A stretch of DNA of 64,000 bases, taken from contig JAZQGC010000009.1 in NCBI GenBank assembly GCA_045539815.1, positions 9,064 through 73,063 on the forward strand, written 5' to 3'. Position numbers and translations under genes: made by a program. The notes under the pieces are model-generated. The model was not told the DNA's origin. It made no database searches and saw only the letters and a program-made list of their open reading frames with translations. Shown here piece by piece: positions 7,539 to 58,224 of this stretch. Source of the DNA: Candidatus Enterousia sp. GTDB lineage: Bacteria > Pseudomonadota > Alphaproteobacteria > Rs-D84. Every line of letters begins with the position of its first letter. Position 1 is the stretch's first letter.

Positions 7539-9560
7539 TTGTGTGCAAAGGATTGCTGTATGAAAGTCTGTGTTGATATCCATGATAAACGTTGGAATAA
7601 ATATAATATTGATTTTGATAAAATTGTCTGTGCGGCGGTTTCTGGCGTACGCAAGGATTCTGAGGTTTCAATTATCTTGACTGATGATGCTGAAATTCAT
7701 GGTGTGAACAAGCAGTATCGTGGTGTGGATAAACCGACAAATGTTTTGTCGTTTGAATTGGGTGATGATATTTTATTGGGTGATATTTATATATCGTTAG
7801 ATACTGTAAAGCGCGAGGCTGAACAGGCCGGTATCAGTGTCGAAGATCATGTTACGCATATGGTTGTGCATGGGGGATTGCATTTGTTGGGCTATGATCA
7901 TATTACCGATGATGAAGCGTCTGTCATGGAAATGAAGGAAATAAAAATATTAAAAAAGTTGGGAATAAAAAATCCTTATACGGATGATGTGGTGTCGTCA
8001 TGTAAATGCGGTGATTGTTGCCCCGGTGGTTGTTTTGTCGCAGGAATAAAAAAATTAAAAATAAAGCAAAATGGTTTTATGCAATACTTTCTGTACGGCG
8101 TATTTGGTGTGTTGGCCAGTTTGGGGTTTGCACCGTTTTATTATGGTTTGTTTACGGTCTTGGGGGTTGCTGGTGCGTATTGGTTGACGGTCAGAAATAC
8201 GGATAAAAGTGGGCTTTGGAAGACATTGTTGCGTGTTTCGCCGTTTGGCGCGTTGTATTGTTTGTCTATGTTTTGGTGGGTATTAAATTCTATATATGTT
8301 GTGCCAGAAATTGCGTCGCAATACGCAATATGGACACTGCCCGGGGTCGTTGGATTAATGCTGGCCGGTGTGATGATATTTTCATGGCCGTTTATTGCCG
8401 TGACCAAGGTTCGTGCAAATGCCATGGGGCGTGTTTTCTTGTTCGCGTCCGTATGGGTGTTAGTGTTGTGGGCGCGTGAGTGGATGTTTACTGGTTTCCC
8501 ATGGAACCCGATTGCAAATATCGCAATGCCGTATCCAGTGTTGGCAAATTCAATGTCTGTTTTCGGTGCGCTGGGGTTAAGTTTTTTAATTGTTGGTTTG
8601 ATTGCGTCTGTTGTTGAAGTGTGCAGAAGAAAAAAATATGCAATTTATACATTTGTTTTCTTTGTGTTGTTGGCTGTATGCGCATGTTTTGCTGGGGTGC
8701 ATAATATGCGATTGGCCGATGTTGGTGCCACGGATGAACATGTTATGTTGCGAATTGTGCAACCTGGATTGTCGCAAAGTCAAAAGGCCACCCATAACAG
8801 GGTAGAGGCATTGCAAAAAGCATCAGATAATTTATATAATTTAGTAAAATTGGCAAATGTTGATAATAATGCTGATATTATTTTGTTCCCAGAAACGGCG
8901 TATCCCTTTGTTGTTATGAAAGATGATTTGATAGATGTTGCAAGATATCTGAATAAGCCAATGTTAATTGGTGCAAATGTTTTTGACGCGGGCGGTTTAT
9001 TTAATTCGATGGTTGTAGCCCAAGAAAATGGCCGTATACAACAGATTTATAGCAAGACACATTTGGTGCCGTTTGGTGAATATAGGCCGTTGGGGGTTTT
9101 GCCGTCACCAGTTAATTTAACGCCTGGTAATGGACCGGAAATTATAAGTGTTGGAAATTTTGTTTTTGCACCGGCGATTTGTTATGAAATTATTTTTTCT
9201 GATTCTTTGTTAGAATCTGGGGTGGGGCGTGTTGATGCAATTGTTAATCTGACAAATGATAATTGGTTTGGTAATACGCCGGGCGTTTATCAGCATCTGG
9301 ATATGGTGCGCCGTTATGCCATTGAGTCAGGGGTGCCAATTGTGCGTGCAAATTATTCTGGTATCAGCGCATTTGTTGCGTCAGATGGTGAAATTATTTC
9401 TGCGTTGCCGGTTGGCGCAGTTGATGTGTTGGATGGTTTTGTATGGGGCGCACATCAAACACCATATCGACAGATTGGATTAAATGGTTGGTTGATAATT
9501 ATTTTGTCTGTATCTGTGTTTGGGATTTTTATATCAAAGCTGATAGATCGTAAAAATTAA
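7539..9560 (+). CDS. ybeY/lnt: in-frame fusion ORF: endoribonuclease YbeY domain (N-terminal ~150 aa) joined to apolipoprotein N-acyltransferase Lnt (C-terminal ~510 aa)
   Basis: The YbeY H3xH zinc motif HMVVHGGLHLLGYDH is present. A Cys-rich linker VVSSCKCGDCCPGGCF follows, then the Lnt TM region (LGFAPF, EWMFTGFPWNP) and a CN-hydrolase domain (ILFPETAYP…). There is no stop codon between the two domains. Confidence 0.75.
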   Translation: MCAKDCCMKVCVDIHDKRWNKYNIDFDKIVCAAVSGVRKDSEVSIILTDDAEIHGVNKQYRGVDKPTNVLSFELGDDILLGDIYISLDTVKREAEQAGISVEDHVTHMVVHGGLHLLGYDHITDDEASVMEMKEIKILKKLGIKNPYTDDVVSSCKCGDCCPGGCFVAGIKKLKIKQNGFMQYFLYGVFGVLASLGFAPFYYGLFTVLGVAGAYWLTVRNTDKSGLWKTLLRVSPFGALYCLSMFWWVLNSIYVVPEIASQYAIWTLPGVVGLMLAGVMIFSWPFIAVTKVRANAMGRVFLFASVWVLVLWAREWMFTGFPWNPIANIAMPYPVLANSMSVFGALGLSFLIVGLIASVVEVCRRKKYAIYTFVFFVLLAVCACFAGVHNMRLADVGATDEHVMLRIVQPGLSQSQKATHNRVEALQKASDNLYNLVKLANVDNNADIILFPETAYPFVVMKDDLIDVARYLNKPMLIGANVFDAGGLFNSMVVAQENGRIQQIYSKTHLVPFGEYRPLGVLPSPVNLTPGNGPEIISVGNFVFAPAICYEIIFSDSLLESGVGRVDAIVNLTNDNWFGNTPGVYQHLDMVRRYAIESGVPIVRANYSGISAFVASDGEIISALPVGAVDVLDGFVWGAHQTPYRQIGLNGWLIIILSVSVFGIFISKLIDRKN

Positions 9561-48292: not shown

Positions 48293-49315
48293 ATGTCGGA
48301 TATGTTTGATAAATTATTATTGTTAAGAACGCCTGGGGTTGGACCGGTGCGATATGCGCAACTGATTAATCAATTTGGTTGTGTCGCAGCGGCTGCGCGT
48401 GCGGTGGCAACGGATGGGCAATTGCGCGATTCGGTTTTGCAAGAGATGGAACGTGCCAATGCGTTGGGGGTTGTCTATTTGTCTGACGATGATGCGCGAT
48501 ATCCACAAAATTTGCGCAAAATAAAAAATCATCCGCCTGTGATTTGTGTCAGGGGAAATATAGATGTGTTGGCAAAAAAGATGGTATCTGTTGTGGGAAC
48601 GCGTCATGCGACCGCGGCGGGTATGAATATCGTGTCAGATATTGCGTGCAGGTTTGCTGAAAATTCGGTGGCGGTTGTGTCTGGGTTGGCAATCGGGACA
48701 GATACGGCGGCCCATCGTGGCGCTTTGCGTGCCGATGGCGATGCCCAGACGGTTGCAGTACTGGCGGGTGGGGTTGATTATGTGTGGCCATTGGAAAACG
48801 AATCGCTGTATTATCAAATCTTGGAACGTGGTGCAATTATCAGCGAGATGCCGGTCGGTTTTGTGCCAATTGCCAATAATTTTGTTCAGCGTAACAGGTG
48901 GGTTGCGGGGTTGTCTGATTCGTTAATTTTGGGCGAGGCCGATTTGAAATCAGGTTCAATGACAACGGCGCGATTCGCAATCAATTATGGACGTGAAGTG
49001 TGGGCAATACCATCACACCCCATGGATCCCAGGGCCACCGGGCCAAATTCGTTGATTCGCAGTGGGGATGCTAAATTATGTATGGGGCCGGATGATTTTT
49101 TTGAAAAAGATAAAAAAATAAAAAAAGATGAAAAAAAATCTGAAAAAAATGAATCGGAAAACAGTCTTATTGACGCGATAGGTAATATTCCAGTGTCAGA
49201 ATCTGTATTGTCAGAAATTGTCAAAAAATCAATTTCGGAAATCAAGGCGAATTTGGTTGTCTTGGAATTGCAGGGTTTGGTGCGAAAAGTTGACGGTGGA
49301 TATGTTCGCGTATAA
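48293..49315 (+). CDS. dprA: DNA-processing protein DprA (Smf)
   Basis: Rossmann-like DprA core GTRHATAAGMNI…SGLAIGTDTAAHRGAL. The ATG at 48293 is preferred; the upstream TTG is at 48254. Confidence 0.8.
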   Translation: MSDMFDKLLLLRTPGVGPVRYAQLINQFGCVAAAARAVATDGQLRDSVLQEMERANALGVVYLSDDDARYPQNLRKIKNHPPVICVRGNIDVLAKKMVSVVGTRHATAAGMNIVSDIACRFAENSVAVVSGLAIGTDTAAHRGALRADGDAQTVAVLAGGVDYVWPLENESLYYQILERGAIISEMPVGFVPIANNFVQRNRWVAGLSDSLILGEADLKSGSMTTARFAINYGREVWAIPSHPMDPRATGPNSLIRSGDAKLCMGPDDFFEKDKKIKKDEKKSEKNESENSLIDAIGNIPVSESVLSEIVKKSISEIKANLVVLELQGLVRKVDGGYVRV

Positions 49316-49809
49316 CTGATTTTATGTATATACAGTGTATATACAGTGTATATACAAAATGGCAGAAAACGGGCAAAAAAACGAATCGTTGTCAAAAAAT
49401 AAATCTGCGTTTTTTTGTTAATATTTTGTTGTAAATCGAATTTTATCTTATAAATTATTTGACGTATCCAAAACCGATTGAGAGATAAAAAATCAATCAA
49501 AAATTTAGGTCTTGGTTTTATGGCTGGGGCTTAAAAAAAAGGTGCGTCTTGGGTGACATTATAAGATGTCAAAAAATGTAAAGATGTGCCTGTGGTTTGG
49601 AAACTTGTGCTGGGTTCTTGGAACTGAAAAACGACAGGCTTGCAAGAATCAGTTTAACATGAGTGGCCAACCCAAACAGCGAGAGAGTAAGAGTAGGGCA
49701 ATAAAAATAAGTATTCTGAAACAGGGATATTTACGTTTTGTGCAGGTGGCTTTTACAACCTTGTGCATTGGGCAGGAAACTCTTTTAGGGAAGGAAAGGA
49801 GAAAACGAT
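49316..49809. promoter_or_regulatory. dnaA upstream region (candidate dnaA promoter/5'UTR; possible origin-associated region)
   Basis: A 494-bp non-coding region containing the triple palindrome and an AT-rich block (about 49390-49500). No perfect TTATCCACA DnaA boxes were seen. Confidence 0.3.
49325..49356. repeat. three copies of the 10-bp perfect palindrome TGTATATACA at 11-bp periodicity
   Basis: The copies lie at 49325-49334, 49336-49345 and 49347-49356, immediately after the dprA stop. Confidence 0.7.
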
Positions 49810-51093
49810 ATGCAGACAGTGGCAAAATTACAAATGACTAACTTGGAAGATATCAAGGGGGCCATTGCCGCAAAAATGGATTCTGCAAGTTTTGCTTCTT
49901 GGGTTGCACCATTAACATTTGATATTGTAAATGATACCTTGGTTTTGGGTGCACAAAATCAATTTTCAGCAGATTTTATTAACAGTGTTCATGGCAATAT
50001 GATTGCAGCTGTTGCGCGTGATTTTGGTTTGAATGCGCGTGTTGTTGTGCGTGGGGCGGCGGTTAAAACGGTTGCACCAATTGCAAATGATAATCAGGCC
50101 CAGGTTTATGCGCCTGTGGCAGTGGCACAGAACAATGCGTCTGTTGCGTTTGATTCTTTTGTTGTGTGTGATGAAAATATGTTTGTTGTATCGGCATGCA
50201 AAAAATTGGCAGCGGGCAGTGTTCCTTTTTCCCCGCTGTTTATTTATGGTGTGGCAGGTTGCGGTAAAACATTATTAACAGAATGTATCGCGGGCGCATC
50301 ACAGGGGCGTGTCGTTAAAATGAGTGGTGCGCAATTTGTTTCTGAATTTACACGCAGCTTGAAAGAACATAATATTTTCGCGTTCAAAGATTTTTGCCGT
50401 AATTGCGATACTTTTATTTTGGATGATGTACAAAGCTTGTCTGGTAAAAAGGCGTCAACAGATGAATTCTTGCAATTGGTTGTTGATTTGCGTAATGCGG
50501 GCAAGAACATTGTTTTGACATCAAATGCGGCCCCAAACAATATGACAGGATTTGACAGACGTGCACAATCTTTGTTGGCGTCTGGTTTGGTTGCGGATGT
50601 TTGTGCGCCAAATGCACATGTAAAATCTGTTATGTTAAAGCGTGCAGGTGTTGCAACAGATGTTGCAGATGCGATTGCGTCACGTATTGCAAATGATGGT
50701 CACTTGATTGCAGGTGTTGCGACAAAAATCAAAACATATGTTGATTTGATGGGTGCTGCGGTTGATATGGATGTTGCACAACGTTTGTTGGCAGATACAT
50801 TGCAGAAAACAAAAACACCATCTGCAATGGTTAAAGAAATGTGTGAAAAATTGGCTGTATCTTATGATGCGGTATGTGGTAATGGTCGCAGTCGTTCATT
50901 GGTTTTGGCGCGTCAGATAATGATGGTTGTATTAAAAAATGTTACGGGTTTGTCTTTGACAGAAATTGGTAATTTTGTTGGTGGTCGTGATCATGCAACG
51001 GTTTTGTATGCAATCAAACAAATTGAAAAACAACAGGCGTCAGATTTGGTTTTGTCCGCCCAGATTCAACAGTTGATTGGTGAATATAAATAA
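49810..51093 (+). CDS. dnaA: chromosomal replication initiator protein DnaA
   Basis: AAA+ motifs LFIYGVAGCGKTLL, FILDDVQ and VLTSN, plus domain IV SLTEIGNFVGGRDHATVLYAIKQIE. Confidence 0.8.
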   Translation: MQTVAKLQMTNLEDIKGAIAAKMDSASFASWVAPLTFDIVNDTLVLGAQNQFSADFINSVHGNMIAAVARDFGLNARVVVRGAAVKTVAPIANDNQAQVYAPVAVAQNNASVAFDSFVVCDENMFVVSACKKLAAGSVPFSPLFIYGVAGCGKTLLTECIAGASQGRVVKMSGAQFVSEFTRSLKEHNIFAFKDFCRNCDTFILDDVQSLSGKKASTDEFLQLVVDLRNAGKNIVLTSNAAPNNMTGFDRRAQSLLASGLVADVCAPNAHVKSVMLKRAGVATDVADAIASRIANDGHLIAGVATKIKTYVDLMGAAVDMDVAQRLLADTLQKTKTPSAMVKEMCEKLAVSYDAVCGNGRSRSLVLARQIMMVVLKNVTGLSLTEIGNFVGGRDHATVLYAIKQIEKQQASDLVLSAQIQQLIGEYK

Positions 51094-51119
51094 AAATACC
51101 CCCTGTTTGGGGATTTTTT
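51094..51119 (+). terminator. intrinsic terminator after dnaA
   Basis: acccc-ctgttt-ggggat followed by T6. Confidence 0.55.
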
Positions 51120-51183
51120 ATTGCTTGGAATTTATTGTGTTTTGTGGTAAAATTGCAGGGATATAATATATAGGAAGGGATTT

Positions 51184-52530
51184 ATGAAGAAATTTTTATT
51201 ATTTGTCTTGGCTTTGTTTGGTTGTGTGTCTGGTGCTGCGGCAGTGGAAGAATGTTTTGTACCAACAGATAGATTTGAGTTGGCAGGGTTTCAGAAAAGT
51301 ACTGATGATGAATTTTTGTATGATGCGGATGGGAATATTTATGAATGTGATGATGAGTTTTGTACTGATTCCCAAGAAGTGACTATGCCCGCAGGACATA
51401 TTTGGCAGGGTAAAACATATGGTGAATCTGTGAAGTATAGGTGTCGTATAGGTGATTATTTTAATGAAGACCGTTGGGAGCGCGTGGCCTTGGATAATAG
51501 AACGCAAGAGTTTACAGAGGATAAGATAGAATATGCGACGGGAGGGTGTGGGAATCCTGTTGGTTTAACAGAATATAGATTTGGGCAGTTTTCTGCGGAT
51601 AATGAGTTTATATATGATAAAGGGAAAGTGTACGAGTGTGATAATGAATTTTGTAAAGATGGGACAGAGAAATGTTTTGACGCGGGGCATTATTGGAAGG
51701 GGAAAGAAATCAAAGGAGCAGTAAAATATCGTTGTGAAGGTAGGACAAACTGGGTGCAGATTGAAATTGGTGACAAGTGTGTTGGTGGTAAAATAGCGCC
51801 AGGTCCTGGGGATTCTGATAAACCAAAGCCCGGGGAAAATAAAAAATCTTGCGTAGAAACGCGTAGTACGGCAGAGGGTAAGGCGTGTTGTTCGTTGTCG
51901 GATAGTGTTGCAAGGTGGACAGGAAGTGAATGTGTTTGTGTTGATACGAATAGGGAGTTTTCTTATGAGGGTTTGCAGGGGTATTGTAATACTAAGGGGA
52001 ATGAGGATGGTATTTATACTTGTGGACCGGCTGATCATGATAGTTTTACTATATGGACAACACAGTGTGCAGATTTTCCGGAAGGGTTGGCTTATATTGA
52101 GCAGCTGAAAGCGATGTGTGGTACAGCAAAGACGAGTGAATATGATAAATTGTTTAATGTGGTTCAAAGTTTTGTTAATGCCAAGTGTCAGAAAAGCACG
52201 GTGATACAAGAAGTAGTGGTAATAAAAGAAGAAAAACCAAAAAATACTGATGCGGAACGCAAAAAGATTTTGGCGGCTGAAAGCGTTTTGAAGGATATTG
52301 AATCCGGATTTGATGTCAGTGTTTGGAAAGACGCTGATGGTAAATTTAATACTGCGCGTTTGGCATCAGATTCAATTGCGGGTGTTGTTTTGGGTACCGC
52401 GGGTGGTTTGATTACCAGCAGCGTTATCAAAAAACATCAGGTAGAAGACGGATTCGAAGATATTAACTGTGTAATTGGCGGTCAATCTGTCGCCGGTTGG
52501 GGTGATGAATTTAGTGTTGGTGTTCAATAA
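51184..52530 (+). CDS. secreted cysteine-rich protein with two tandem ~60-aa repeats and a C-terminal hydrophobic segment
   Basis: Signal peptide. Repeats DDEFLYDADGNIYECDDEFCTD…KYRC and DNEFIYDKGKVYECDNEFCKD…KYRC. A C-terminal Gly-rich helix IAGVVLGTAGGLITSSVI. There are 24 Cys in total. Confidence 0.55.
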   Translation: MKKFLLFVLALFGCVSGAAAVEECFVPTDRFELAGFQKSTDDEFLYDADGNIYECDDEFCTDSQEVTMPAGHIWQGKTYGESVKYRCRIGDYFNEDRWERVALDNRTQEFTEDKIEYATGGCGNPVGLTEYRFGQFSADNEFIYDKGKVYECDNEFCKDGTEKCFDAGHYWKGKEIKGAVKYRCEGRTNWVQIEIGDKCVGGKIAPGPGDSDKPKPGENKKSCVETRSTAEGKACCSLSDSVARWTGSECVCVDTNREFSYEGLQGYCNTKGNEDGIYTCGPADHDSFTIWTTQCADFPEGLAYIEQLKAMCGTAKTSEYDKLFNVVQSFVNAKCQKSTVIQEVVVIKEEKPKNTDAERKKILAAESVLKDIESGFDVSVWKDADGKFNTARLASDSIAGVVLGTAGGLITSSVIKKHQVEDGFEDINCVIGGQSVAGWGDEFSVGVQ

Positions 52531-52561
52531 TAAAAATGCCCCGTTGTGGGGCATTTTTTTA
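52531..52561 (+). terminator. intrinsic terminator
   Basis: atgcccc-gttgt-ggggcat followed by T7. Confidence 0.7.
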
Positions 52562-52701
52562 TGGTGTGTGCTGATTTTTATTGTTTACAGATATGTAAAA
52601 AATTGATATAATTACAGAGATAAACATACATTTTGTATGGCGGAAATTAATGAAAGGTTGGGTTTCTGGGGATTGTGGCCCGAAACACACAGGGGGGTTA
52701 G

Positions 52702-55533
52702 ATGATAAGTCAAAAAATCGTAGGTTCTGTCAAAAATGCAGTTGGGACTGTTTTCTTGTTGATGGGTGCGTTTTTGGTTTGTTCTACATTGGTGTCAATG
52801 CGTACGGTGTTGGCTGATCCGATTGCGCCAATTAATGACCAGGCTGTTTTGGTGCAACAGTTGGGAACTCAACAGGGTAATGCGCGCGGTGCGGCATTGC
52901 GTGAAAGTCCACGAAATCGTGCGACGACGCGTACAAATGTTGCACGTACAACTGTGGCGCCTGCAACAAATTCACGTGCGGTGGCAACACGTGCGGCAAA
53001 TTCGCGTGCGGCCACGGTGAATAATGCGCGTGCAACAACACGGGCGGCGGCAAAACGCGCCGTGTCTTCGCGTGCAACGGCAACACCAACGCGTGGGGTT
53101 GTGCAAAATCAACGCAGTGTCGTTTCGCGCAGTGCAAATGTTGCAAACAGAACAACAGCAATAAATAATCGTAATGTTCGTGCCCGTACGGCTGTGGCCG
53201 CGGATTCTGCGCGCGTTTCTTTGCAGGGCAGTGCAATTCGTGGTTCGAAAACAAGTGGTGGAACCAGTTATTCTTATCTGACGAATAAACTGTATACGGG
53301 AAATTATTCCAATATTATCGATTCAACCACAGGATTGATTTCAGCGGATGCGTTTAATAATTGTTTGGAATCTTATTATGCGTGTATGGATGAAATCTGT
53401 ACCGCGCGTAACCAGGCCCAGCGTCGTTGTGCGTGCGCTGGACGCGTAACCGCATTTGCAGAGGCAGAAGCCGCACTGGAAACAGCAAACGAAGAATTAA
53501 TCAAGGCGTCTGGTGAATTGGCATTGTTGGTTGCAAATCGTGGTAAAGATGTATCAGAAGCATTTCAATTAACCGAAGCGGAACAGGTTATGAACTGTGT
53601 TTCATGGCAAGAGGTTACAAATCAATATGGTACAAATTCTGAACAGGCCATAGATTGGTGTTCGTCGCATGGAATCTTTAATGATGGCAAGGTGGTAACA
53701 AGTTGTGGTATGCCAGATTATTGTTCCAATAACAGCTTTGGATTTGATGTCAAGAATTTAAATGGAAACGGGTCTGATATATTGGCGTCTTTACAGGCGT
53801 GGGCTGATGCCAAAGAACGCACAATCACCATTTTAACAGATGATGAAAATTCTTTGTTAAATGCATTCGAAGGTGTTTCTGGTGTGGTCAGCAATTTGGC
53901 CGGATTGAGTGATGGTTTTGCTGCAAATGAAGAAACCAAGGATTCTTTGGCGGAAACATGGGGGTATGAATTGTTTGCACATGCCCATAACGAGGTTTGC
54001 AGTCGTGTTCTGGATTCTTGTTTTAATGGTATTTATGAATCGTGTGGTTCACCATCGTCGTTCGGTGGAAAATGCGCAAATGGCCAGTCTTCGAATTGTC
54101 CGTTTAACTATAATTCCAAGATAAAAGTCAGTGCAAAGGGCGAAATTGATTTGTTCGAACGCGGTGTGTCGTCCACAACCAATGCCAGTGCGTCTTGTTT
54201 TGGATATACATCAACATCGGGTGATCCATATTCTAATTTGCGTGGGCCGGTTGCTGATGCGCGTCGCAGTATTATGAATAAGTATTTGTTGGACGCAAAT
54301 GCTGATTGCGATTTGTATGGCGAACAATTGCGTACAACCGCACAAAATATCGCCTATCAAAAGGTTGCTGCACAACAGGCGTTGCAACAAAAACGTTTGG
54401 AATTCGCAGTTGAAGAAGAAGAAGAAATCTTGACTGCGGCGATTGAAGCGGGAACAAACTTTAATGAATGTTTAAGTGAAATTTATGATTGTTATGAAAG
54501 TACATCTGACAGTGAACCAAATTGGCCAGATGCGCGTGTGAAAACTTATTGTGCGCAGATTGCAAATGTACCGCATTGCTATGAAGAGATGATTTGTAAT
54601 CCTTCTACGGCACAATTCAAGGCAATCATAGACAAGGCAGACAATGCACAATGTGATAATAATCAAGATTATACAAAAAATACTTGCCGTAATATTGTTA
54701 CATTGAATGAAATCTTGAAAGGTACGGGCGTGAATGGCGCGTCTGTTGAATTGGATGGCAAAGGAAATTCTGCTGCAATGCGTGAACAATGCTTGTTGGA
54801 TGCGGGCGTGGCAGATATCCGTAACTGGTCCACAGATGTTGTTCTGGAACAAAGATGTTCTGTGGCTGAGTTGCCGAAAAATGCAACAACTGGTTACAAG
54901 GATAAAAATGGAAATTGTGTTGCGCTGACATGTAACGAAGGGTATTTGTTGATTAATGGTGAATGTAATCAATCGTCAAGATTGGACTGCACAAAGGCTA
55001 TCCCAGGCGCAAAACAGGCGTATAGAGAACTGGAAAATGGACAGTATGGTGATTGTAAATTGGATTCTTGTCTGGATAATTATGAAAAAGTTGGCAATGA
55101 ATGTAAGCCAAACACTGAATCTTGTCCGGCAGATACATTGACTGTTCTGAATGCAATCAGTGGAACACGTGTTTGGGGCGGTAGTGCGTGGGATGGTTGT
55201 GTGATAAAAGCATGTAAATCTGGGTTCGAATTGTATAACAATACATGTTATAAAACAACTGCTTCGTGTGATATCCAAAATGCCAAGGTTGCACGGCAGG
55301 ATTTTGTTAATGGTTCATATGGCGCGTGTTATGTTGTAGAGTGCGAAACCAATTATCAACCCAATGCAGATGAAACAAAATGCGAACCAAAAACCGTGGC
55401 TTGCACAACACTGCCAGCAAATGCAACGGCTGGGACACGGACATGGCAGGGAACTGATTGGTCGGAATGTGAAATAACCAAGTGCGTTGATGATTATGAT
55501 TTAGTCGACAACAAGTGTGTTAAAAAAGAATAA
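52702..55533 (+). CDS. large (943 aa) secreted/membrane-anchored cysteine-rich repeat protein
   Basis: N-terminal hydrophobic signal/anchor. An Arg/Thr/Ala-rich low-complexity tract of about 110 aa (RNRATTRTNVARTTVAPATNSRAVATRAANSRAATV…). A central Cys-rich domain. Five C-terminal modules of about 45 aa, each with four Cys of the form C-x2-3-C-x2-(G/N/D)(Y/F)-x5-7-C, e.g. CVALTCNEGYLLINGEC. Confidence 0.6.
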   Translation: MISQKIVGSVKNAVGTVFLLMGAFLVCSTLVSMRTVLADPIAPINDQAVLVQQLGTQQGNARGAALRESPRNRATTRTNVARTTVAPATNSRAVATRAANSRAATVNNARATTRAAAKRAVSSRATATPTRGVVQNQRSVVSRSANVANRTTAINNRNVRARTAVAADSARVSLQGSAIRGSKTSGGTSYSYLTNKLYTGNYSNIIDSTTGLISADAFNNCLESYYACMDEICTARNQAQRRCACAGRVTAFAEAEAALETANEELIKASGELALLVANRGKDVSEAFQLTEAEQVMNCVSWQEVTNQYGTNSEQAIDWCSSHGIFNDGKVVTSCGMPDYCSNNSFGFDVKNLNGNGSDILASLQAWADAKERTITILTDDENSLLNAFEGVSGVVSNLAGLSDGFAANEETKDSLAETWGYELFAHAHNEVCSRVLDSCFNGIYESCGSPSSFGGKCANGQSSNCPFNYNSKIKVSAKGEIDLFERGVSSTTNASASCFGYTSTSGDPYSNLRGPVADARRSIMNKYLLDANADCDLYGEQLRTTAQNIAYQKVAAQQALQQKRLEFAVEEEEEILTAAIEAGTNFNECLSEIYDCYESTSDSEPNWPDARVKTYCAQIANVPHCYEEMICNPSTAQFKAIIDKADNAQCDNNQDYTKNTCRNIVTLNEILKGTGVNGASVELDGKGNSAAMREQCLLDAGVADIRNWSTDVVLEQRCSVAELPKNATTGYKDKNGNCVALTCNEGYLLINGECNQSSRLDCTKAIPGAKQAYRELENGQYGDCKLDSCLDNYEKVGNECKPNTESCPADTLTVLNAISGTRVWGGSAWDGCVIKACKSGFELYNNTCYKTTASCDIQNAKVARQDFVNGSYGACYVVECETNYQPNADETKCEPKTVACTTLPANATAGTRTWQGTDWSECEITKCVDDYDLVDNKCVKKE

Positions 55534-55560
55534 AAAAACCGCCAATCGGCGGTTTTTTTA
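55531..55560. terminator. bidirectional intrinsic terminator
   Basis: A7-accgcc-aatc-ggcggt-T7 between convergent genes. Confidence 0.7.
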
Positions 55561-56019
55561 ATGTTGATTATTTTTCTTGTATTTTTCAATCAATTTGGCA
55601 CGGATTGCGATTTCTTGTTCTATATCTTTCCATGTTGCTTGATTTAAATGTTCTTTGTAATTTTTTTCGTATTCGTCAAATATGTATAACGAATGTGGGA
55701 ATACTAATGCAACAGGATCCAATGTTTTGCAGCTTTTGTATTCAATGATTGTTGTTGCAATCTCTGGTCCCATGACTGTTTGTAATTGTTCTTGATGTAT
55801 TGACATTTCGTATGCGCATGGATTTGGAAAATTGATTGCACTCAGCCAACCTGTATTTGTTTGTTGTTCGACACCATTGATTTTTATAACTGCCATTGGT
55901 GTTTCATAGCACATACCAAAAAATGCGTTCGGCATGAATGAACCGAATTTTATGTTATAGGTTGTTTTTAATACAGAATTGTCTTGTGTTTTTGTATTTG
56001 TTGTTTCTTTATTTGACAT
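55558..56019 (-). CDS. hypothetical protein (~153 aa; alternative upstream start at 56085)
   Basis: ORF with protein-like composition. No recognised motif. Confidence 0.45.
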   Translation of the reverse strand: MSNKETTNTKTQDNSVLKTTYNIKFGSFMPNAFFGMCYETPMAVIKINGVEQQTNTGWLSAINFPNPCAYEMSIHQEQLQTVMGPEIATTIIEYKSCKTLDPVALVFPHSLYIFDEYEKNYKEHLNQATWKDIEQEIAIRAKLIEKYKKNNQH

Positions 56020-56109
56020 GTTAATGTACCTTTGTTTTTTTATCATTGTAATACAATAAAATAAATTGTCAATAATTATAAGCAAAAAAAACTGGGGTCG
56101 CCCCCAGCT

Positions 56110-58089
56110 TTATACAAATAAATCTTTGACGAATTGGGCATGCTCGGTTATAAATTTAAAGCGAAATTCTGGTTTTTTGCCCATTAATTCAGATACGATT
56201 GTACGCGTTTTTTCCGTGTCTTCGGCGCCTTCTTCGGTGCGTGGGGGTAATTCAACGCGTATTAATCGGCGGGTTTTTTGGGACATTGTTGTTTCTTTTA
56301 GTTGGTTTGGCATCATTTCGCCCAGTCCCTTGAATCGTGATATTTCGACTTTTTTATTTTTGTATTTTGTCGCCTTTAAATTTTCCAGTTCTTCGTCACT
56401 GTCAACATATATCGATTCGGTGCCACATGTTAACTTATACAATGGGGGACAAGATAGATACAGGTGTCCGCCATAAATTAACTGGGGCATATATTGATAG
56501 AAAAACGCCATTAATAATGATGCAATATGGCTGCCGTCAACGTCGGCATCGGTCATAATGATGATTTTTTCATAACGTAATTTATCTTCGTTCCAGTCCT
56601 TGGCCGTGCCGGCGCCAATAATGTCGATTAAGTCATTTAATTCTTTGTTCGCGCCAAAGCGTTCATCGGAATTGGAAATAACATTTAACACCTTGCCACG
56701 CAGGGGCATAATTGCCTGGGTTGCGCGATCGCGCGCCTGTTTGGCGGTGCCACCAGCAGATTCCCCTTCGACGATGAATAATTCTGTGCCCGCAATACCG
56801 TGTTTTGAACAGTCTGCCAATTTTGCAGGCATACGAATTCGTTTTGTTGGGGTTTTACGCGCAACATCCTTGACCTGTTTGGTTTTAATGCGGGCGTTGG
56901 CCAGATTTATAACAAATTCTAATAATGCGTTCGCTGTTTTGGGGTCAGATGCCAAAAACATTTCCCATGGATCACGCAGTGCGTTTTCTGTGAAACGCGC
57001 GATTTCTGGGTTGGATAATTTTTCTTTGGTTTGACCCAAAAATTGTGGGGTTTTGTAAAATACAGATACGATTGATGCAACAGAATCAAATACGTCTTCA
57101 CCGATAATAGATGATGCAGATTTGTTGTTTGTTTTTTCGCCGTATGCTTTTAAACCCTTGGTTATGGCGGACTTAAAACCAGTTTCGTGTGTGCCACCGT
57201 CAATTGTTGCAATCGTATTACAATATGACGAGAAAAATCCGTCGTCAGATGCCGCACCGTTTTCATCGGTTAAAAATGTCAATGCCCATTCAACGCGTCC
57301 CGAATCGTCAGGAAAATCAACGCTGCCACTGAATATGCGGGGTAAAATACGTGGTTTTGAATCGGTTTTTTCCGCCAAGAAATCTGCAACGCCGTTCGGA
57401 TAATGAAATGTTGTTGTTGCAGGAATATTCATATCTTCTGTCAGCAGATCAGGGTTACATTGCCAGTCTATTTTTATTCCCTTGGATAAAAAAGCCTTGG
57501 CACGGGCCATGCGATAAATCTTTATTGGTTTGAAGGTTGCGTTTGCGCCAAAGATTTCATCATCAATTGTAAATCGTATTTTTGTGCCGTGAGATTTTGT
57601 TGCGTCGCCGCGTTGCATTGTGCTGGTCGGTAACCCACGAGAAAATGTTTGACGCCATTGATAGCCATCGCGGGAAATGGTCACAATCATTTCAGATGAC
57701 AGGGCGTTCACAACCGCAGAACCAACACCATGCAGACCGCCACTGGTTTTATATACATTGTTATTAAACTTGCCACCAGAATGCAGGGTTGTTAAAATTA
57801 CCTCTAATGCAGATTTGCCGGGGTATTTTGGATGCTCGTCCACGGGGATTCCGCGGCCGTCATCTGTGATTTCAATCGTTTTGGAATCAATTAAATGAAC
57901 CGATATTTTCTTTGCAAATCCGGCCACGGCTTCGTCAATAGAATTGTCCATGATTTCAATTGGCAGATGATGCCATGCCTTTTCATCTGTACCGCCAATA
58001 TACATCCCAGGACGCAAACGAACAGGCTCTAAACCCTCCAGAACCTGAATGTCTGATGCGTCATATGTTTTTATATTCTTGTCTGTCAT
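56110..58089 (-). CDS. parE: type IIA topoisomerase B subunit, ParE-like (topoisomerase IV subunit B) by length
   Basis: GHKL ATPase motifs IMDNSIDEA and HGVGSAVVNALS, and a TOPRIM domain. At 660-673 aa it lacks the GyrB-specific insertion. Confidence 0.7.
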   Translation of the reverse strand: MTDKNIKTYDASDIQVLEGLEPVRLRPGMYIGGTDEKAWHHLPIEIMDNSIDEAVAGFAKKISVHLIDSKTIEITDDGRGIPVDEHPKYPGKSALEVILTTLHSGGKFNNNVYKTSGGLHGVGSAVVNALSSEMIVTISRDGYQWRQTFSRGLPTSTMQRGDATKSHGTKIRFTIDDEIFGANATFKPIKIYRMARAKAFLSKGIKIDWQCNPDLLTEDMNIPATTTFHYPNGVADFLAEKTDSKPRILPRIFSGSVDFPDDSGRVEWALTFLTDENGAASDDGFFSSYCNTIATIDGGTHETGFKSAITKGLKAYGEKTNNKSASSIIGEDVFDSVASIVSVFYKTPQFLGQTKEKLSNPEIARFTENALRDPWEMFLASDPKTANALLEFVINLANARIKTKQVKDVARKTPTKRIRMPAKLADCSKHGIAGTELFIVEGESAGGTAKQARDRATQAIMPLRGKVLNVISNSDERFGANKELNDLIDIIGAGTAKDWNEDKLRYEKIIIMTDADVDGSHIASLLMAFFYQYMPQLIYGGHLYLSCPPLYKLTCGTESIYVDSDEELENLKATKYKNKKVEISRFKGLGEMMPNQLKETTMSQKTRRLIRVELPPRTEEGAEDTEKTRTIVSELMGKKPEFRFKFITEHAQFVKDLFV

Positions 58090-58224
58090 GCTTGTATTAT
58101 TAGAACATTTTTTGATTTTACGCAAGCCCAAAGAATTTAAGCATAATTATTATTCTGGGCTTGATTTTTTTATGTGCTGTCTTATATATTCTATAACGAT
58201 AATTAAATTACAGCAGGTTATAAC

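What the first reader, a model, noticed from the sequence alone, without database searches (positions are those of the whole stretch)
49810..52530. dnaA not followed by dnaN; instead followed by a secreted Cys-rich tandem-repeat protein
The near-universal dnaA-dnaN linkage is broken. The next gene encodes a signal-peptide protein with 24 cysteines and two ~60-aa repeats (…YECD(D/N)EFC…KYRC…), ending in a Gly-rich hydrophobic helix. No family is recognised. A disulfide-rich extracytoplasmic protein is notable for a bacterium of this type.
Basis: seen in the sequence. Interest (0 to 1): 0.55.

Follow-up and report, generated by a model that had tools for sequence, protein, structure and literature searches.

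The report
Hypervariable cysteine-rich envelope protein after dnaA
The gene after dnaA in this small-genome gut alphaproteobacterium (Candidatus Enterousia, order Rs-D84) encodes an exported, disulfide-rich protein whose outer part is swapped wholesale between near-identical strains while its signal peptide and membrane anchor stay constant. This is the pattern of a variable surface or contact antigen, whereas the missing dnaN neighbour is ordinary for this class.

Summary
The sequence observation is mostly right. dnaA is at 49810-51093. The next gene (51184-52530, 448 aa) is not dnaN. It has a signal peptide, two significant ~64-aa Cys repeats, a Gly-rich hydrophobic helix and no Pfam, NCBIfam, PDB or Foldseek match. 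It has 22 cysteines, not 24, and the helix is followed by a conserved 33-aa tail.

The window comes from Candidatus Enterousia or a close relative (Rs-D84, gut Alphaproteobacteria, genomes under 1 Mb). dnaA followed by this gene is the conserved state of the lineage: 57 of 59 species loci that contain dnaA.

The protein belongs to a large uncharacterised family (952 clusters at 50% identity). Its parts are a signal peptide, 0-4 Cys repeats, a central Cys domain, a stalk and an ultra-conserved C-terminal module. Ectodomain Cys counts are even in 109 of 118 members, which implies disulfides.

Strains ~99% identical in the flanks (dS ~0.03) carry unalignable ectodomain modules (dS above 1). The breakpoints are sharp, at the signal-peptide cleavage codon and before the anchor, and the modules reassort in all four combinations.

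I read it as a lineage-specific polymorphic envelope antigen or adhesin, shuffled by homologous recombination. Its topology (inner-membrane anchor or surface display) and its function are not settled.

The parts
49810..51093 (+). dnaA (427 aa), the upstream neighbour. It is a separate transcription unit.
   Evidence: Pfam Bac_DnaA, Bac_DnaA_C and DnaA_N. It is 64-90% identical across 59 related loci.
51097..51119 (.). Terminator-like GC hairpin (ACCCCC-TGTT-TGGGGA) flanked by an A-run and a T-run, directly after the dnaA stop codon.
   Evidence: The same motif (D1) follows the stops of dnaA, the target gene and the 943-aa gene.
51125..51153 (+). Promoter-like site (TTGGAA, 17 nt, TAAAAT, with extended TG) upstream of the target gene. 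The ribosome-binding site AGGAAGGG lies at 51172-51179.
   Evidence: This is a consensus match only and has not been shown to function.
51184..52530 (+). Target gene: a 448-aa exported Cys-rich protein with a C-terminal anchor module.
   Evidence: ORF. P0001 is a 100% identical database entry. Family alignment A1.
51184..51243 (+). Signal peptide, aa 1-20, with a signal peptidase I type AxA site. This is the constant 5' 'handle'.
   Evidence: All 60 nt are 100% identical in 5 strain-level sequences, and divergence starts at codon 21. The family consensus is MKK..h-region..AxA. A lipobox-like motif occurs in only 32 of 118 members and lies inside the hydrophobic region.
51253..51444 (+). Cys repeat 1 (aa 24-87; ...DDEFLYD..YECDDEFC...GHIWQGK...KYRC).
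   Evidence: AF2 pLDDT is 84-93 here.
51547..51735 (+). Cys repeat 2 (aa 122-184).
   Evidence: The repeat copy number ranges from 0 to 4 across 120 relatives.
51850..52188 (+). Central Cys-rich alpha/beta domain (aa 223-335, 10 Cys; motif ...RSTAEGKACCSLS..VA.W...C.C...).
   Evidence: AF2 pLDDT ~90. C223, C250, C252, C268, C280 and C312 are invariant.
51249..52161 (+). Hypervariable cassette: the mature N-terminus to about aa 326. It is replaced between strains whose flanks are ~99% identical.
   Evidence: blastn against L084 gives 98.97% identity over 46280-51248 and 98.65% over 52162-60000. In between there is nothing alignable except 81% identity at 51823-51998. Module alignment. dS and dN by region.
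52255..52527 (+). Constant C-terminal module (aa 358-448): helix, then WK..G.FNTARLASDSIAGVVLGTAGGLITSSV-KK, then the tail QVEDGFED..C.IGGQ.VAGWGDEF.VG.Q.
   Evidence: This is the most conserved part of the family. It lies at the extreme C-terminus in the top hits of 952 clusters. It has no Pfam or PDB match. AF2 confidence is low here.
52360..52428 (+). Gly-zipper-like hydrophobic segment (aa 393-415), followed by the invariant K416 and K417.
52531..52559 (.). Terminator-like hairpin (GCCCC-GTTGT-GGGGC plus a T-run) after the target gene's stop codon.
   Evidence: family D1.
47369..48226 (+). p305: a conserved orphan exported protein (285 aa from MKYF) with its own Gly-zipper helix (TARVWGTVGGVVGGAGIGVGAMELFG). 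It is a possible partner of the target.
   Evidence: It is syntenic in 54 loci. It lies directly upstream of a target-family gene, with no dnaA between, in L024, L028 and L041. Its family has 1166 clusters with no names and no Pfam domains. hhalign shows no homology to the target beyond the signal peptide.

Best explanation
The gene encodes a lineage-specific (Rs-D84 / Candidatus Enterousia) envelope protein.

Mechanism, with the basis of each step:
1. Export. The protein is exported by Sec and cut by signal peptidase I after the AxA site. This is inferred from the sequence and the family consensus.
2. Folding. The ectodomain consists of 0-4 copies of a ~65-aa Cys repeat plus a central Cys domain, and it is held together by about 10 disulfides. 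This is inferred statistically from the Cys parity.
3. Anchoring. A charged stalk and an ultra-conserved C-terminal module hold the protein in a membrane. The module's Gly-zipper hydrophobic segment most simply reads as an inner-membrane helix with the 33-residue tail, carrying a single invariant Cys, in the cytoplasm. This step is inferred and not shown.
4. Variation. The ectodomain is a polymorphic contact or antigen surface. Old, highly divergent allelic modules are exchanged between strains by homologous recombination. The invariant signal-peptide and anchor-coding ends, and an internal conserved stretch, serve as the crossover sites. The recombination is shown at the sequence level. The selective agent is inferred: a partner or host cell, phage or immunity.
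5. Position. The location after dnaA is inherited synteny and not a functional link. dnaA, this gene and the next gene each have their own terminator-like hairpin, and this gene and the next gene have their own promoter-like sites.
For: Organism and synteny:
- Loci from Candidatus Enterousia and gut alphaproteobacterial MAGs match the family.
- A family gene lies within 1.6 kb downstream of dnaA in 57 of 59 species loci that contain dnaA. The same order is seen in 327-kb and 428-kb contigs.

Family anatomy:
- Alignment A1 shows invariant cysteines and a near-invariant C-terminus.
- The C-terminal module is found in 952 clusters at 50% identity, 920 of them at E<=1e-10. In nearly all of the 150 hits shown it ends at the protein's last residues.
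- The repeat copy number ranges from 0 to 4.

Disulfides and compartments:
- The ectodomain Cys count is even in 109 of 118 members.
- There is exactly one Cys in the anchor plus tail in 115 of 115 members.

The organism has two membranes: LolA, Lnt, an outer-membrane beta-barrel protein, an autotransporter beta-domain, a secretin and TatC are in the window.

Hypervariability:
- Window against strain L084: the flanks are ~99% identical and 51249-52161 is unalignable.
- Flank dS is 0.028-0.039 with dN/dS 0.02-0.07. The N-module has dS 1.1 and dN 1.2, central-2 has dS 1.3 and dN 0.9, and the C-terminus has dS 0.039.
- Two N-module types and three central-2 types occur in all four combinations among the window, L084, L085 and L087.
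- The type B junction was assembled independently in three samples.
- The signal-peptide coding sequence is 100% identical in five sequences, and divergence starts at codon 21.

Concerted evolution of the anchor: in genomes with two divergent paralogues the 3' 270-390 nt are 98-100% identical, with an abrupt drop upstream.

Separate transcription: terminator-like hairpins after each gene and a promoter-like site.

Lifestyle: Rs-D84 bacteria are described as obligate symbionts or parasites that lack standard transporters and carry many hypothetical membrane proteins possibly used in cell-cell interaction (PMC12306168).
Against: - No function, localisation or expression data exist.
- If the anchor is an inner-membrane helix in a bacterium with two membranes, the ectodomain is periplasmic. 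Strong diversifying or balancing selection is harder to explain there.
- The hydrophobic segment is only borderline for a membrane helix (Kyte-Doolittle 1.68) and AF2 gives it low confidence.
- The strain comparison rests on 4-5 metagenome-assembled sequences. The dN and dS values in the variable modules are saturated, so their ratio is unreliable.
- Rs-D84 bacteria lack respiratory chains (PMC12306168). How they would run a DsbA/DsbB-type oxidation pathway is therefore unclear, and I could not check this.
- No Dsb gene was seen in the 64-kb window.
Confidence: 0.55

Rival explanations
1. Same protein, different topology. The conserved C-terminal module is not an inner-membrane helix. It is an outer-membrane or oligomeric anchor, either like a trimeric autotransporter (head, stalk, short anchor) or like a glycine-zipper outer-membrane anchor. 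The variable Cys-rich head would then be displayed on the cell surface as an adhesin or antigen.
For: - The architecture is a variable head, a charged stalk with a helix (aa 356-374) and a ~75-aa constant C-terminal module rich in G, A, V, S and T that ends ...GDEF.VG.Q.
- Hypervariability and recombination are typical of exposed proteins.
- AF2 run on a monomer fails on the module, as it would for an obligate oligomer.
- The window encodes outer-membrane biogenesis parts and an autotransporter-type beta-domain protein.
Against: - There is no YadA_anchor or any other Pfam hit even at E<=10, and no PDB sequence hit. Foldseek found nothing.
- There is no C-terminal aromatic residue.
- Nearly every residue of the hydrophobic stretch is conserved, rather than alternating ones.
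- The invariant KK directly after the segment fits the positive-inside rule for an inner-membrane helix.
- Disulfide-rich passengers are poorly compatible with type V secretion (established knowledge).
Confidence: 0.25
2. The protein is a periplasmic structural or housekeeping envelope protein. Its ectodomain is simply weakly constrained, and the variation is neutral drift plus recombination with no role in interaction or antigenicity.
For: - It is a positional orthologue conserved across the lineage next to housekeeping genes.
- The anchor is constant.
- dN/dS in the variable modules does not exceed 1 (0.6-1.05).
Against: - Neutral drift since strain divergence cannot give dS above 1 in a background with dS of 0.03. 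The alleles are old and co-exist within one species-level background.
- The module boundaries are sharp and the modules reassort.
- The Cys framework and its parity are strictly kept, so the fold is under selection.
- Repeat number changes and paralogue expansion are typical of interaction proteins.
Confidence: 0.12
3. The protein is functionally tied to DnaA or to replication, for example as a membrane tether or regulator. That link would explain why the dnaA adjacency is conserved.
For: The gene is adjacent to dnaA in 57 of 59 loci that contain dnaA.
Against: - A terminator-like hairpin and a promoter-like site lie between the two genes.
- Family members sit in other contexts in related genera: after mutL, after a ribosomal protein cluster, or directly after p305 with no dnaA.
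- Some genomes have the copy next to dnaA on the opposite strand.
- The bulk of the protein lies outside the cytoplasm.
- There is no DnaA-box cluster here (23 matches in the window against 26.6 expected).
Confidence: 0.04

Closest known systems
Giardia variant-specific surface proteins (VSPs)
   Same: Both are from gut organisms. [quoted passage not shown] Many variants share one constant anchor.
   Different: - There is no sequence or fold relation, and the target has no CXXC motifs.
- The tail here is 33 residues, not the 5 residues of CRGKA.
- This is a bacterium with an outer membrane.
- Variation here is allelic, between strains, with 1-2 genes per genome. It is not a switch among about 136 genes in one genome.
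Anaplasma Msp2/P44, Neisseria pilE/pilS and Opa-type recombining surface antigens
   Same: All have a hypervariable central region bounded by conserved 5' and 3' ends that act as recombination sites. Msp2/P44 also comes from an alphaproteobacterium with a reduced genome (own knowledge).
   Different: - No silent donor cassettes were found in the 64-kb window.
- The exchange seen here is between strains.
- The protein is not a beta-barrel porin or a pilin, and there is no homology.
Trimeric autotransporter adhesins (YadA, BadA)
   Same: Both have a head, stalk and anchor layout. The short C-terminal anchor is the only constant part, and the head has a variable number of repeats.
   Different: - There is no YadA_anchor match.
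- There is no terminal aromatic residue.
- The head is disulfide-rich.
- The hydrophobic stretch looks helical and is followed by KK.
Glycine-zipper membrane proteins (Rickettsia 17-kDa antigen, SlyB/Pcp, Gly-zipper_Omp)
   Same: Both have a Gly-rich GxxxG/GxxGG hydrophobic segment in an envelope protein. The neighbouring p305 has an even more typical zipper.
   Different: - There is no Pfam hit to PF05433, PF13488 or PF13441.
- The protein is not a lipoprotein: the lipobox is not conserved.
- There is a single segment, not a two-helix hairpin.

Membership tests
DnaN (beta sliding clamp), the expected dnaA neighbour | Three DNA_pol3_beta domains in a cytoplasmic protein of about 370 aa | tested here: not met
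   No Pfam or NCBIfam hit. The protein has a signal peptide and 22 Cys.
Unnamed Rs-D84 Cys-rich C-terminal-anchor family (this family) | C-terminal module WK..G.FNTARLASDSIAGVVLGTAGG...KK.QVE.GFED..C.IGGQ.VA.WGD.F.VG.Q at the extreme C-terminus | tested here: met
   Alignments A1 and A3. The profile finds 952 clusters, and the window protein (P0001) scores 158 bits.
Unnamed Rs-D84 Cys-rich C-terminal-anchor family (this family) | Signal peptide plus a Cys-rich ectodomain with an even Cys count | tested here: met
   The window protein has 20 ectodomain Cys. The count is even in 109 of 118 members.
Trimeric autotransporter adhesins | YadA-like C-terminal anchor (PF03895) ending in an aromatic residue | tested here: not met
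   Pfam scan of 22 C-terminal modules at E<=10 gave no YadA_anchor hit. The PDB profile search found none. The protein ends in ...VGVQ.
Trimeric autotransporter adhesins | Trimeric 12-strand barrel formed by the anchor | not testable with these tools
   Only monomer AF2 was available, and the module has pLDDT 31-57.
Bacterial lipoproteins | Conserved lipobox [LVI][ASTVI][GAS]C at the end of the signal peptide | tested here: not met
   LFGC at C14 lies inside the hydrophobic region and is followed by an AxA site. A lipobox-like motif occurs in only 32 of 118 members and is not conserved in A1.
Sortase, exosortase or rhombosortase sorting signals (LPXTG, PEP-CTERM, GlyGly-CTERM and others) | Short motif, then a membrane helix, then a basic cluster as the last ~25-35 residues | tested here: not met
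   No NCBIfam hit. A conserved acidic tail of 33 residues follows the helix.
Giardia VSP | Multiple CXXC motifs and a CRGKA tail | tested here: not met
   There are no CXXC motifs, and the tail differs. This is an analogy only.
Diversity-generating retroelement targets | Nearby reverse transcriptase and a template repeat, with adenine-specific changes in a short variable region | tested here: not met
   No RT domain was found among the window ORFs scanned. The variation spans ~900 bp, includes indels and has saturated dS.
Cassette (gene-conversion) antigenic variation systems | Silent donor copies elsewhere in the same genome | tested here: inconclusive
   tblastn with 120 family proteins found no further copy in the 64-kb window. 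The rest of the ~0.9-Mb genome was not available.
Disulfide-bonded extracytoplasmic proteins | A DsbA/DsbB or VKOR oxidation system in the genome | not testable with these tools
   None was found among the window ORFs scanned. Cys parity supports pairing indirectly.

The most novel reading that the evidence does not exclude
This is a previously undescribed bacterial counterpart of protozoan VSP-type antigens. It would be the main variable contact or antigen protein of the Rs-D84 obligate symbionts. The invariant signal-peptide and anchor-coding ends would work as built-in recombination handles for swapping whole disulfide-rich ectodomain modules between strains. The swapping could run through natural transformation, since dprA and a secretin lie in the same conserved block. 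The constant Gly-zipper anchor with its single invariant Cys would couple the protein to a conserved partner such as p305.
Probability: 0.3. Interest if true: 0.7.

Novelty: new variant of a known kind. Interest (0 to 1): 0.45.

Why it matters
Rs-D84 / Enterousia bacteria are widespread in human and animal guts. They are uncultured, have genomes under 1 Mb, and are thought to depend on other cells (PMC12306168). How they contact partners or hosts is unknown.

A core, positionally conserved gene whose disulfide-rich ectodomain is the fastest-changing sequence in its neighbourhood is a concrete candidate for that interface. It could be an adhesin, a receptor, a phage target or an immune target. 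It is also a strain-typing marker.

Neither its confident AF2 domains nor its anchor module matches anything in PDB or BFVD, so it may add new folds.

It also poses a testable biochemical question: how does an anaerobe without respiratory chains oxidise about 10 disulfides per molecule?

The dnaA-dnaN point itself does not matter.

Tried and rejected
- Library scans. Pfam, NCBIfam, PADLOC and PHROGs scans of the target, p305, p943 and p175 gave nothing useful.
- Structure. The AF2 model of the target (pLDDT 72) was searched with Foldseek. The best E-value was 0.8 against PDB and 0.26 against BFVD, so no match. Profile searches against PDB sequences with A1 and A3 gave nothing but designed coiled coils at E~1.
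- Homology of p305 and the target through the shared 'TAR + Gly helix' motif. hhalign matched only the signal peptides, so I rejected this as shown homology. AF2 (pLDDT 67) and Foldseek on p305 gave no match.
- Lipoprotein reading of LFGC. Rejected, because the motif is not conserved and lies inside the hydrophobic region.
- Silent cassettes. None were found in the window.
- DGR. No RT was found, and the pattern of variation is wrong for a DGR.
- Origin next to dnaA. DnaA-box matches are no more frequent than chance and GC skew does not change sign in the window.
- More same-species alleles. An exact 41-nt signal-peptide pattern found 0 matches in the JGI metagenomes.
- Similarity among the target, p305 and p943. 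None was found.
- Literature. I found no explicit statement on alphaproteobacterial dnaA/dnaN order beyond PMC1914354. That point therefore rests partly on my own knowledge.
Full report
**1. What is in the sequence**

dnaA occupies 49810-51093 (+). It matches Pfam Bac_DnaA (6e-30), Bac_DnaA_C and DnaA_N. After a 90-bp spacer comes the ORF 51184-52530 (+), 448 aa.

The spacer holds a GC hairpin flanked by A- and T-runs (51097-51119). It also holds a promoter-like site (51125-51153) and a ribosome-binding site, AGGAAGGG. The same stop/A-run/hairpin/T-run motif follows dnaA, this gene and the next gene (family D1). The three genes therefore look like separate transcription units.

The protein starts with MKKFLLFVLALFGCVSGAAA|VEE. 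It has 22 cysteines, not the 24 reported: C14 in the signal peptide, 20 in the ectodomain and C429 near the end.

The two repeats are real. They span aa 24-87 and aa 122-184, with 31 of 64 residues identical. The alignment score is 156 against 28 +/- 5.6 for 1000 shuffles, z = 23.

The Gly-rich hydrophobic stretch lies at aa ~393-415, with a Kyte-Doolittle maximum of 1.68. It is followed by KK and a 31-residue acidic remainder of the tail, so the protein does not end in the helix.

**2. Organism and the dnaA-dnaN point**

Relatives of the protein come only from gut MAGs labelled Candidatus Enterousia, 'Alphaproteobacteria bacterium' or 'uncultured proteobacterium'. Enterousia is an alphaproteobacterial genus of the uncultured order Rs-D84. 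According to PMC12306168:
- genomes are mostly under 1 Mb;
- there is no TCA cycle and no respiratory chain;
- there are no flagella and no standard transporters;
- the proposed lifestyle is that of an obligate symbiont or parasite.

The window encodes LolA, Lnt, an outer-membrane beta-barrel protein, an autotransporter beta-domain protein, a secretin, TatC, PBP2, and SPOR and LysM/M23 proteins. The organism therefore has two membranes and a periplasm. No dnaN and no Dsb or thioredoxin-like protein appeared among the roughly 45 ORFs scanned.

In Alphaproteobacteria dnaA is not normally followed by dnaN (my own knowledge). PMC1914354 describes dnaA-dnaN-recF-gyrB as the gamma-proteobacterial cluster and places alphaproteobacterial origins beside hemE.

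The comparative data here are direct. The order rpsT(-)-plsY-p305-dprA-dnaA-[family gene]-[p175(-)]-gyrB(-)-dnaJ recurs in 327-kb and 428-kb contigs. Of 79 GTDB species-representative loci, 59 contain dnaA, and 57 of those have a family gene within 1.6 kb downstream of it. The 'broken linkage' is the ancestral state of the lineage and is not an anomaly.

DnaA-box matches in the window are no more frequent than chance (23 against 26.6 expected). GC skew stays positive throughout. There is no sign of an origin beside dnaA.

**3. The family**

The protein has no match in:
- Pfam, NCBIfam, PADLOC or PHROGs;
- PDB by profile search;
- PDB or BFVD by Foldseek with an AF2 model.

In that model the repeats and the central domain are confident (pLDDT 84-96). 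The best Foldseek E-values were 0.8 and 0.26.

It is nevertheless a large family. There are 1463 clusters at 90% identity, none with a name beyond 'hypothetical protein' and none with a Pfam domain. A profile of the last 91 residues, run exhaustively against 1.84 billion representatives, found 952 clusters. Of these, 920 scored E<=1e-10. In nearly all of the 150 hits shown the match ends at the protein's last residues. The boundary of the family is sharp.

The layout from alignment A1 and from BLAST and HMM dissection is:
- a signal peptide with an AxA site;
- 0-4 copies of the ~65-aa Cys repeat (27, 54, 31, 6 and 2 of 120 proteins have 0, 1, 2, 3 and 4 copies);
- a P/G/K-rich linker;
- a central Cys domain (aa 223-335);
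- a K/E-rich stalk with a helix (aa 356-374);
- a near-invariant C-terminal module, WK..G.FNTARLASDSIAGVVLGTAGGLITSSV-KK-QVEDGFED..C.IGGQ.VAGWGDEF.VG.Q.

Conservation runs opposite to the usual pattern. Across species the median identity is 38% for this protein, against 69% for DnaA and 90% for GyrB. The last ~90 residues, however, are 58-76% identical to the window protein across the 22 diverse family members aligned.

**4. Disulfides and compartments**

Cysteines were counted from residue 21 to the FNTAR motif. The count is even in 109 of 118 family members. Every one of 115 members has exactly one Cys in the anchor plus tail.

Such parity is not expected by chance. It is the signature of fully paired cysteines in an oxidising compartment. 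The lone invariant Cys would sit in a different compartment or form an intermolecular bond.

The LFGC motif at C14 is not a conserved lipobox. It appears in 32 of 118 members, inside the hydrophobic region and ahead of an AxA site. The protein is therefore a signal peptidase I substrate and not a lipoprotein.

**5. Hypervariability, the main new finding**

A contig from another sample (L084, carrying P0005) is 98.97% identical to the window over 46280-51248 and 98.65% identical over 52162-60000. Between 51249 and 52161 nothing aligns except 176 bp at 81% identity.

The left breakpoint is exact. The 60 nt that encode the signal peptide are 100% identical in five strain-level sequences, and divergence begins at codon 21, the cleavage site. 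The right breakpoint lies at about aa 327, just before the constant C-terminal part.

Nei-Gojobori estimates for the window against L084:

| Region | dS | dN or dN/dS |
|---|---|---|
| dnaA | 0.028 | dN/dS 0.072 |
| dprA | 0.039 | dN/dS 0 |
| gyrB | 0.035 | dN/dS 0.019 |
| Target, C-terminus | 0.039 | dN 0.011 |
| Target, N-module | 1.1 | dN 1.2 |
| Target, second half of the central domain | 1.3 | dN 0.9 |

The values in the variable modules are saturated, so only their order of magnitude is meaningful. Because dS is as elevated as dN, these are old alleles brought in by recombination and not recent hypermutation.

Aligning four strain-level proteins shows two N-module types. Type A has two repeats (window, L087). 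Type B has one repeat plus a different segment (L084, L085). There are three types of the distal central domain: a (window), b (L084) and c (L085, L087). All four N-module by c/non-c combinations exist, which requires recombination between the modules.

Type B with the same junctions was assembled independently in three samples. This argues against assembly chimeras.

In L085 the stretch from the central domain into the next gene is 94.5% identical, while the dnaA side is 99.3% identical. That is another imported tract.

The closest GTDB species (L005) has DnaA 90% and GyrB 96% identical, but this protein only ~44% identical.

tblastn with 120 family members found no silent copy elsewhere in the 64-kb window.

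**6. Paralogues and concerted evolution of the anchor**

Several species carry two family genes head-to-head downstream of dnaA (L011, L047, L057, L076, L038, L069) or in tandem (L058).

In the divergent pairs the 3'-terminal sequence is nearly identical at the nucleotide level and then falls abruptly to random:
- L011: 300 nt, 100% identical;
- L069: 390 nt, 99.7% identical;
- L076 and L038: 270 nt, 98% identical.

The anchor-coding end is thus homogenised within a genome while the ectodomains diverge. This mirrors the between-strain pattern. These 3' ends form inverted repeats that could also mediate inversion. Both promoters lie inside the segment, so an inversion would not obviously switch expression.

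**7. A possible partner**

p305 (47369-48226) is an exported orphan protein conserved in the same block, with a median identity of 51%. It has its own Gly-zipper helix preceded by 'TAR', as in the target.

In three rumen MAG loci (L024, L028, L041) a p305-like gene sits directly upstream of a family gene, with no dprA or dnaA between them. This hints at a functional pair.

hhalign finds no homology between the two families beyond the signal peptide. p305 has 1166 unnamed relatives, and its AF2 model has no Foldseek match. The link remains a lead and is not a result.

**8. Interpretation**

*Shown.* The gene is a core, positionally conserved member of a lineage-specific family. The ectodomain has conserved, paired-looking cysteines. 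The ectodomain is exchanged in modules between otherwise near-identical strains. The signal-peptide and anchor ends are constant and are homogenised.

*Inferred.* The protein is Sec-exported, disulfide-bonded and membrane-anchored, with a polymorphic ectodomain maintained by some form of frequency-dependent or diversifying selection. The selective agent could be the partner or host cell, phage or mucosal antibody. This fits the proposed partner-dependent lifestyle of the lineage (PMC12306168).

dprA and a secretin lie in the same conserved block. Natural transformation is therefore a plausible route for allele exchange, but this is inference only.

The closest functional analogy is the Giardia VSP. 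It has a variable Cys-rich ectodomain on a highly conserved transmembrane segment plus a conserved Cys-containing tail, and it also comes from a gut organism (PMC10156722). There is no homology and there are no CXXC motifs in the target.

*Unresolved: topology.* Three observations favour an inner-membrane helix with the tail in the cytoplasm: the KK after the hydrophobic stretch, the lone tail Cys, and the fact that every position of the stretch is conserved. That model puts a hypervariable domain in the periplasm, which is odd. The rival is an oligomeric or outer-membrane anchor that displays the head on the surface. It fits the biology better but failed every sequence test I could run.

**9. 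Verdict**

Its headline, dnaA without dnaN, is ordinary for an alphaproteobacterium.

What is there is an uncharacterised protein family with no detectable fold relatives. It behaves like a modular, recombining variable envelope antigen. This is a new variant of a well-known kind of system, in a poorly known but common group of gut bacteria. Interest is moderate at 0.45. It would be higher if surface exposure and a role in partner or host contact were demonstrated.

Noticed in passing
window 52702-55533 (+): A 943-aa Cys-rich protein (45 Cys) with no family match. It has an N-terminal signal-anchor, an A/R/T/N-rich low-complexity region (DNA repeats at 52943-53075) and five C-terminal ~45-aa Cys repeats (C...C..GY.L....C). 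It is present only in the closest relatives (L005, L084, L085, L087), inserted between the target gene and p175/gyrB. It has its own strong promoter-like site (52584-52612, 11 of 12 matches) and its own terminator. Segment 54967-55362 is unalignable against L085 and L005, and dN/dS against L084 is 0.48. It looks like a second variable envelope protein.
   Followed up: partly
window 47309-48226 (+); L024, L028, L041: p305 is a conserved orphan exported protein with a glycine-zipper helix and five invariant Cys. Its family has 1166 unnamed clusters. It lies directly upstream of a target-family gene in three rumen MAG loci that have no dnaA between the two genes. It may be a partner of the target.
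   Followed up: partly
L011 5038-7296; L069 3663-6669; L076 3356-6558; L038 3576-6699: These are head-to-head paralogue pairs of the family. Their 3' 270-390 nt are 98-100% identical inverted repeats that bracket the two variable 5' parts and a shared ~60-160-bp promoter region. This shows concerted evolution, and the segment may be invertible.
   Followed up: partly
window 7539-9560 (+): A single 673-aa ORF combines a YbeY endoribonuclease domain (aa 26-141) with a full apolipoprotein N-acyltransferase (LNT_N and CN_hydrolase, aa 190-624). It is either a gene fusion or two adjacent genes read through from a TTG start.
   Followed up: no
window 49316-49809: This is a 494-bp AT-rich spacer upstream of dnaA. 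It has a tandem/palindromic repeat (49322-49359, TATATACAGTG units). A stretch just before the start codon (…CAGGAAACTCTTTTAGGGAAGGAAAGGAG…) reappears, translated as 'QETLLGKERR', in the extended dnaA ORFs of distant relatives (L038, L058, L076). It may be a conserved dnaA leader. There is no DnaA-box cluster.
   Followed up: no
window 1-64000: GC skew is strongly positive almost everywhere (0.1-0.38 per 2 kb). It falls to about 0 only where genes are on the minus strand (34-38 kb, 56-58 kb). There is no sign change, so the replication origin is not in the window even though dnaA is.
   Followed up: partly
window 44456-46084 and 48254-49315: A secretin gene and dprA lie in the same conserved block as dnaA. 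Together they suggest DNA-uptake competence in a genome under 1 Mb, which would fit the recombination seen at the target locus.
   Followed up: no
L023, L049, L079, L083 (flanks of the family gene): Other Rs-D84 genomes carry clusters of further unannotated, signal-peptide-bearing Cys-rich proteins (for example 671 aa with 25 Cys, 614 aa with 21 Cys and 287 aa with 20 Cys) next to family members. Disulfide-rich exported proteins seem to be a general feature of the lineage.
   Followed up: no
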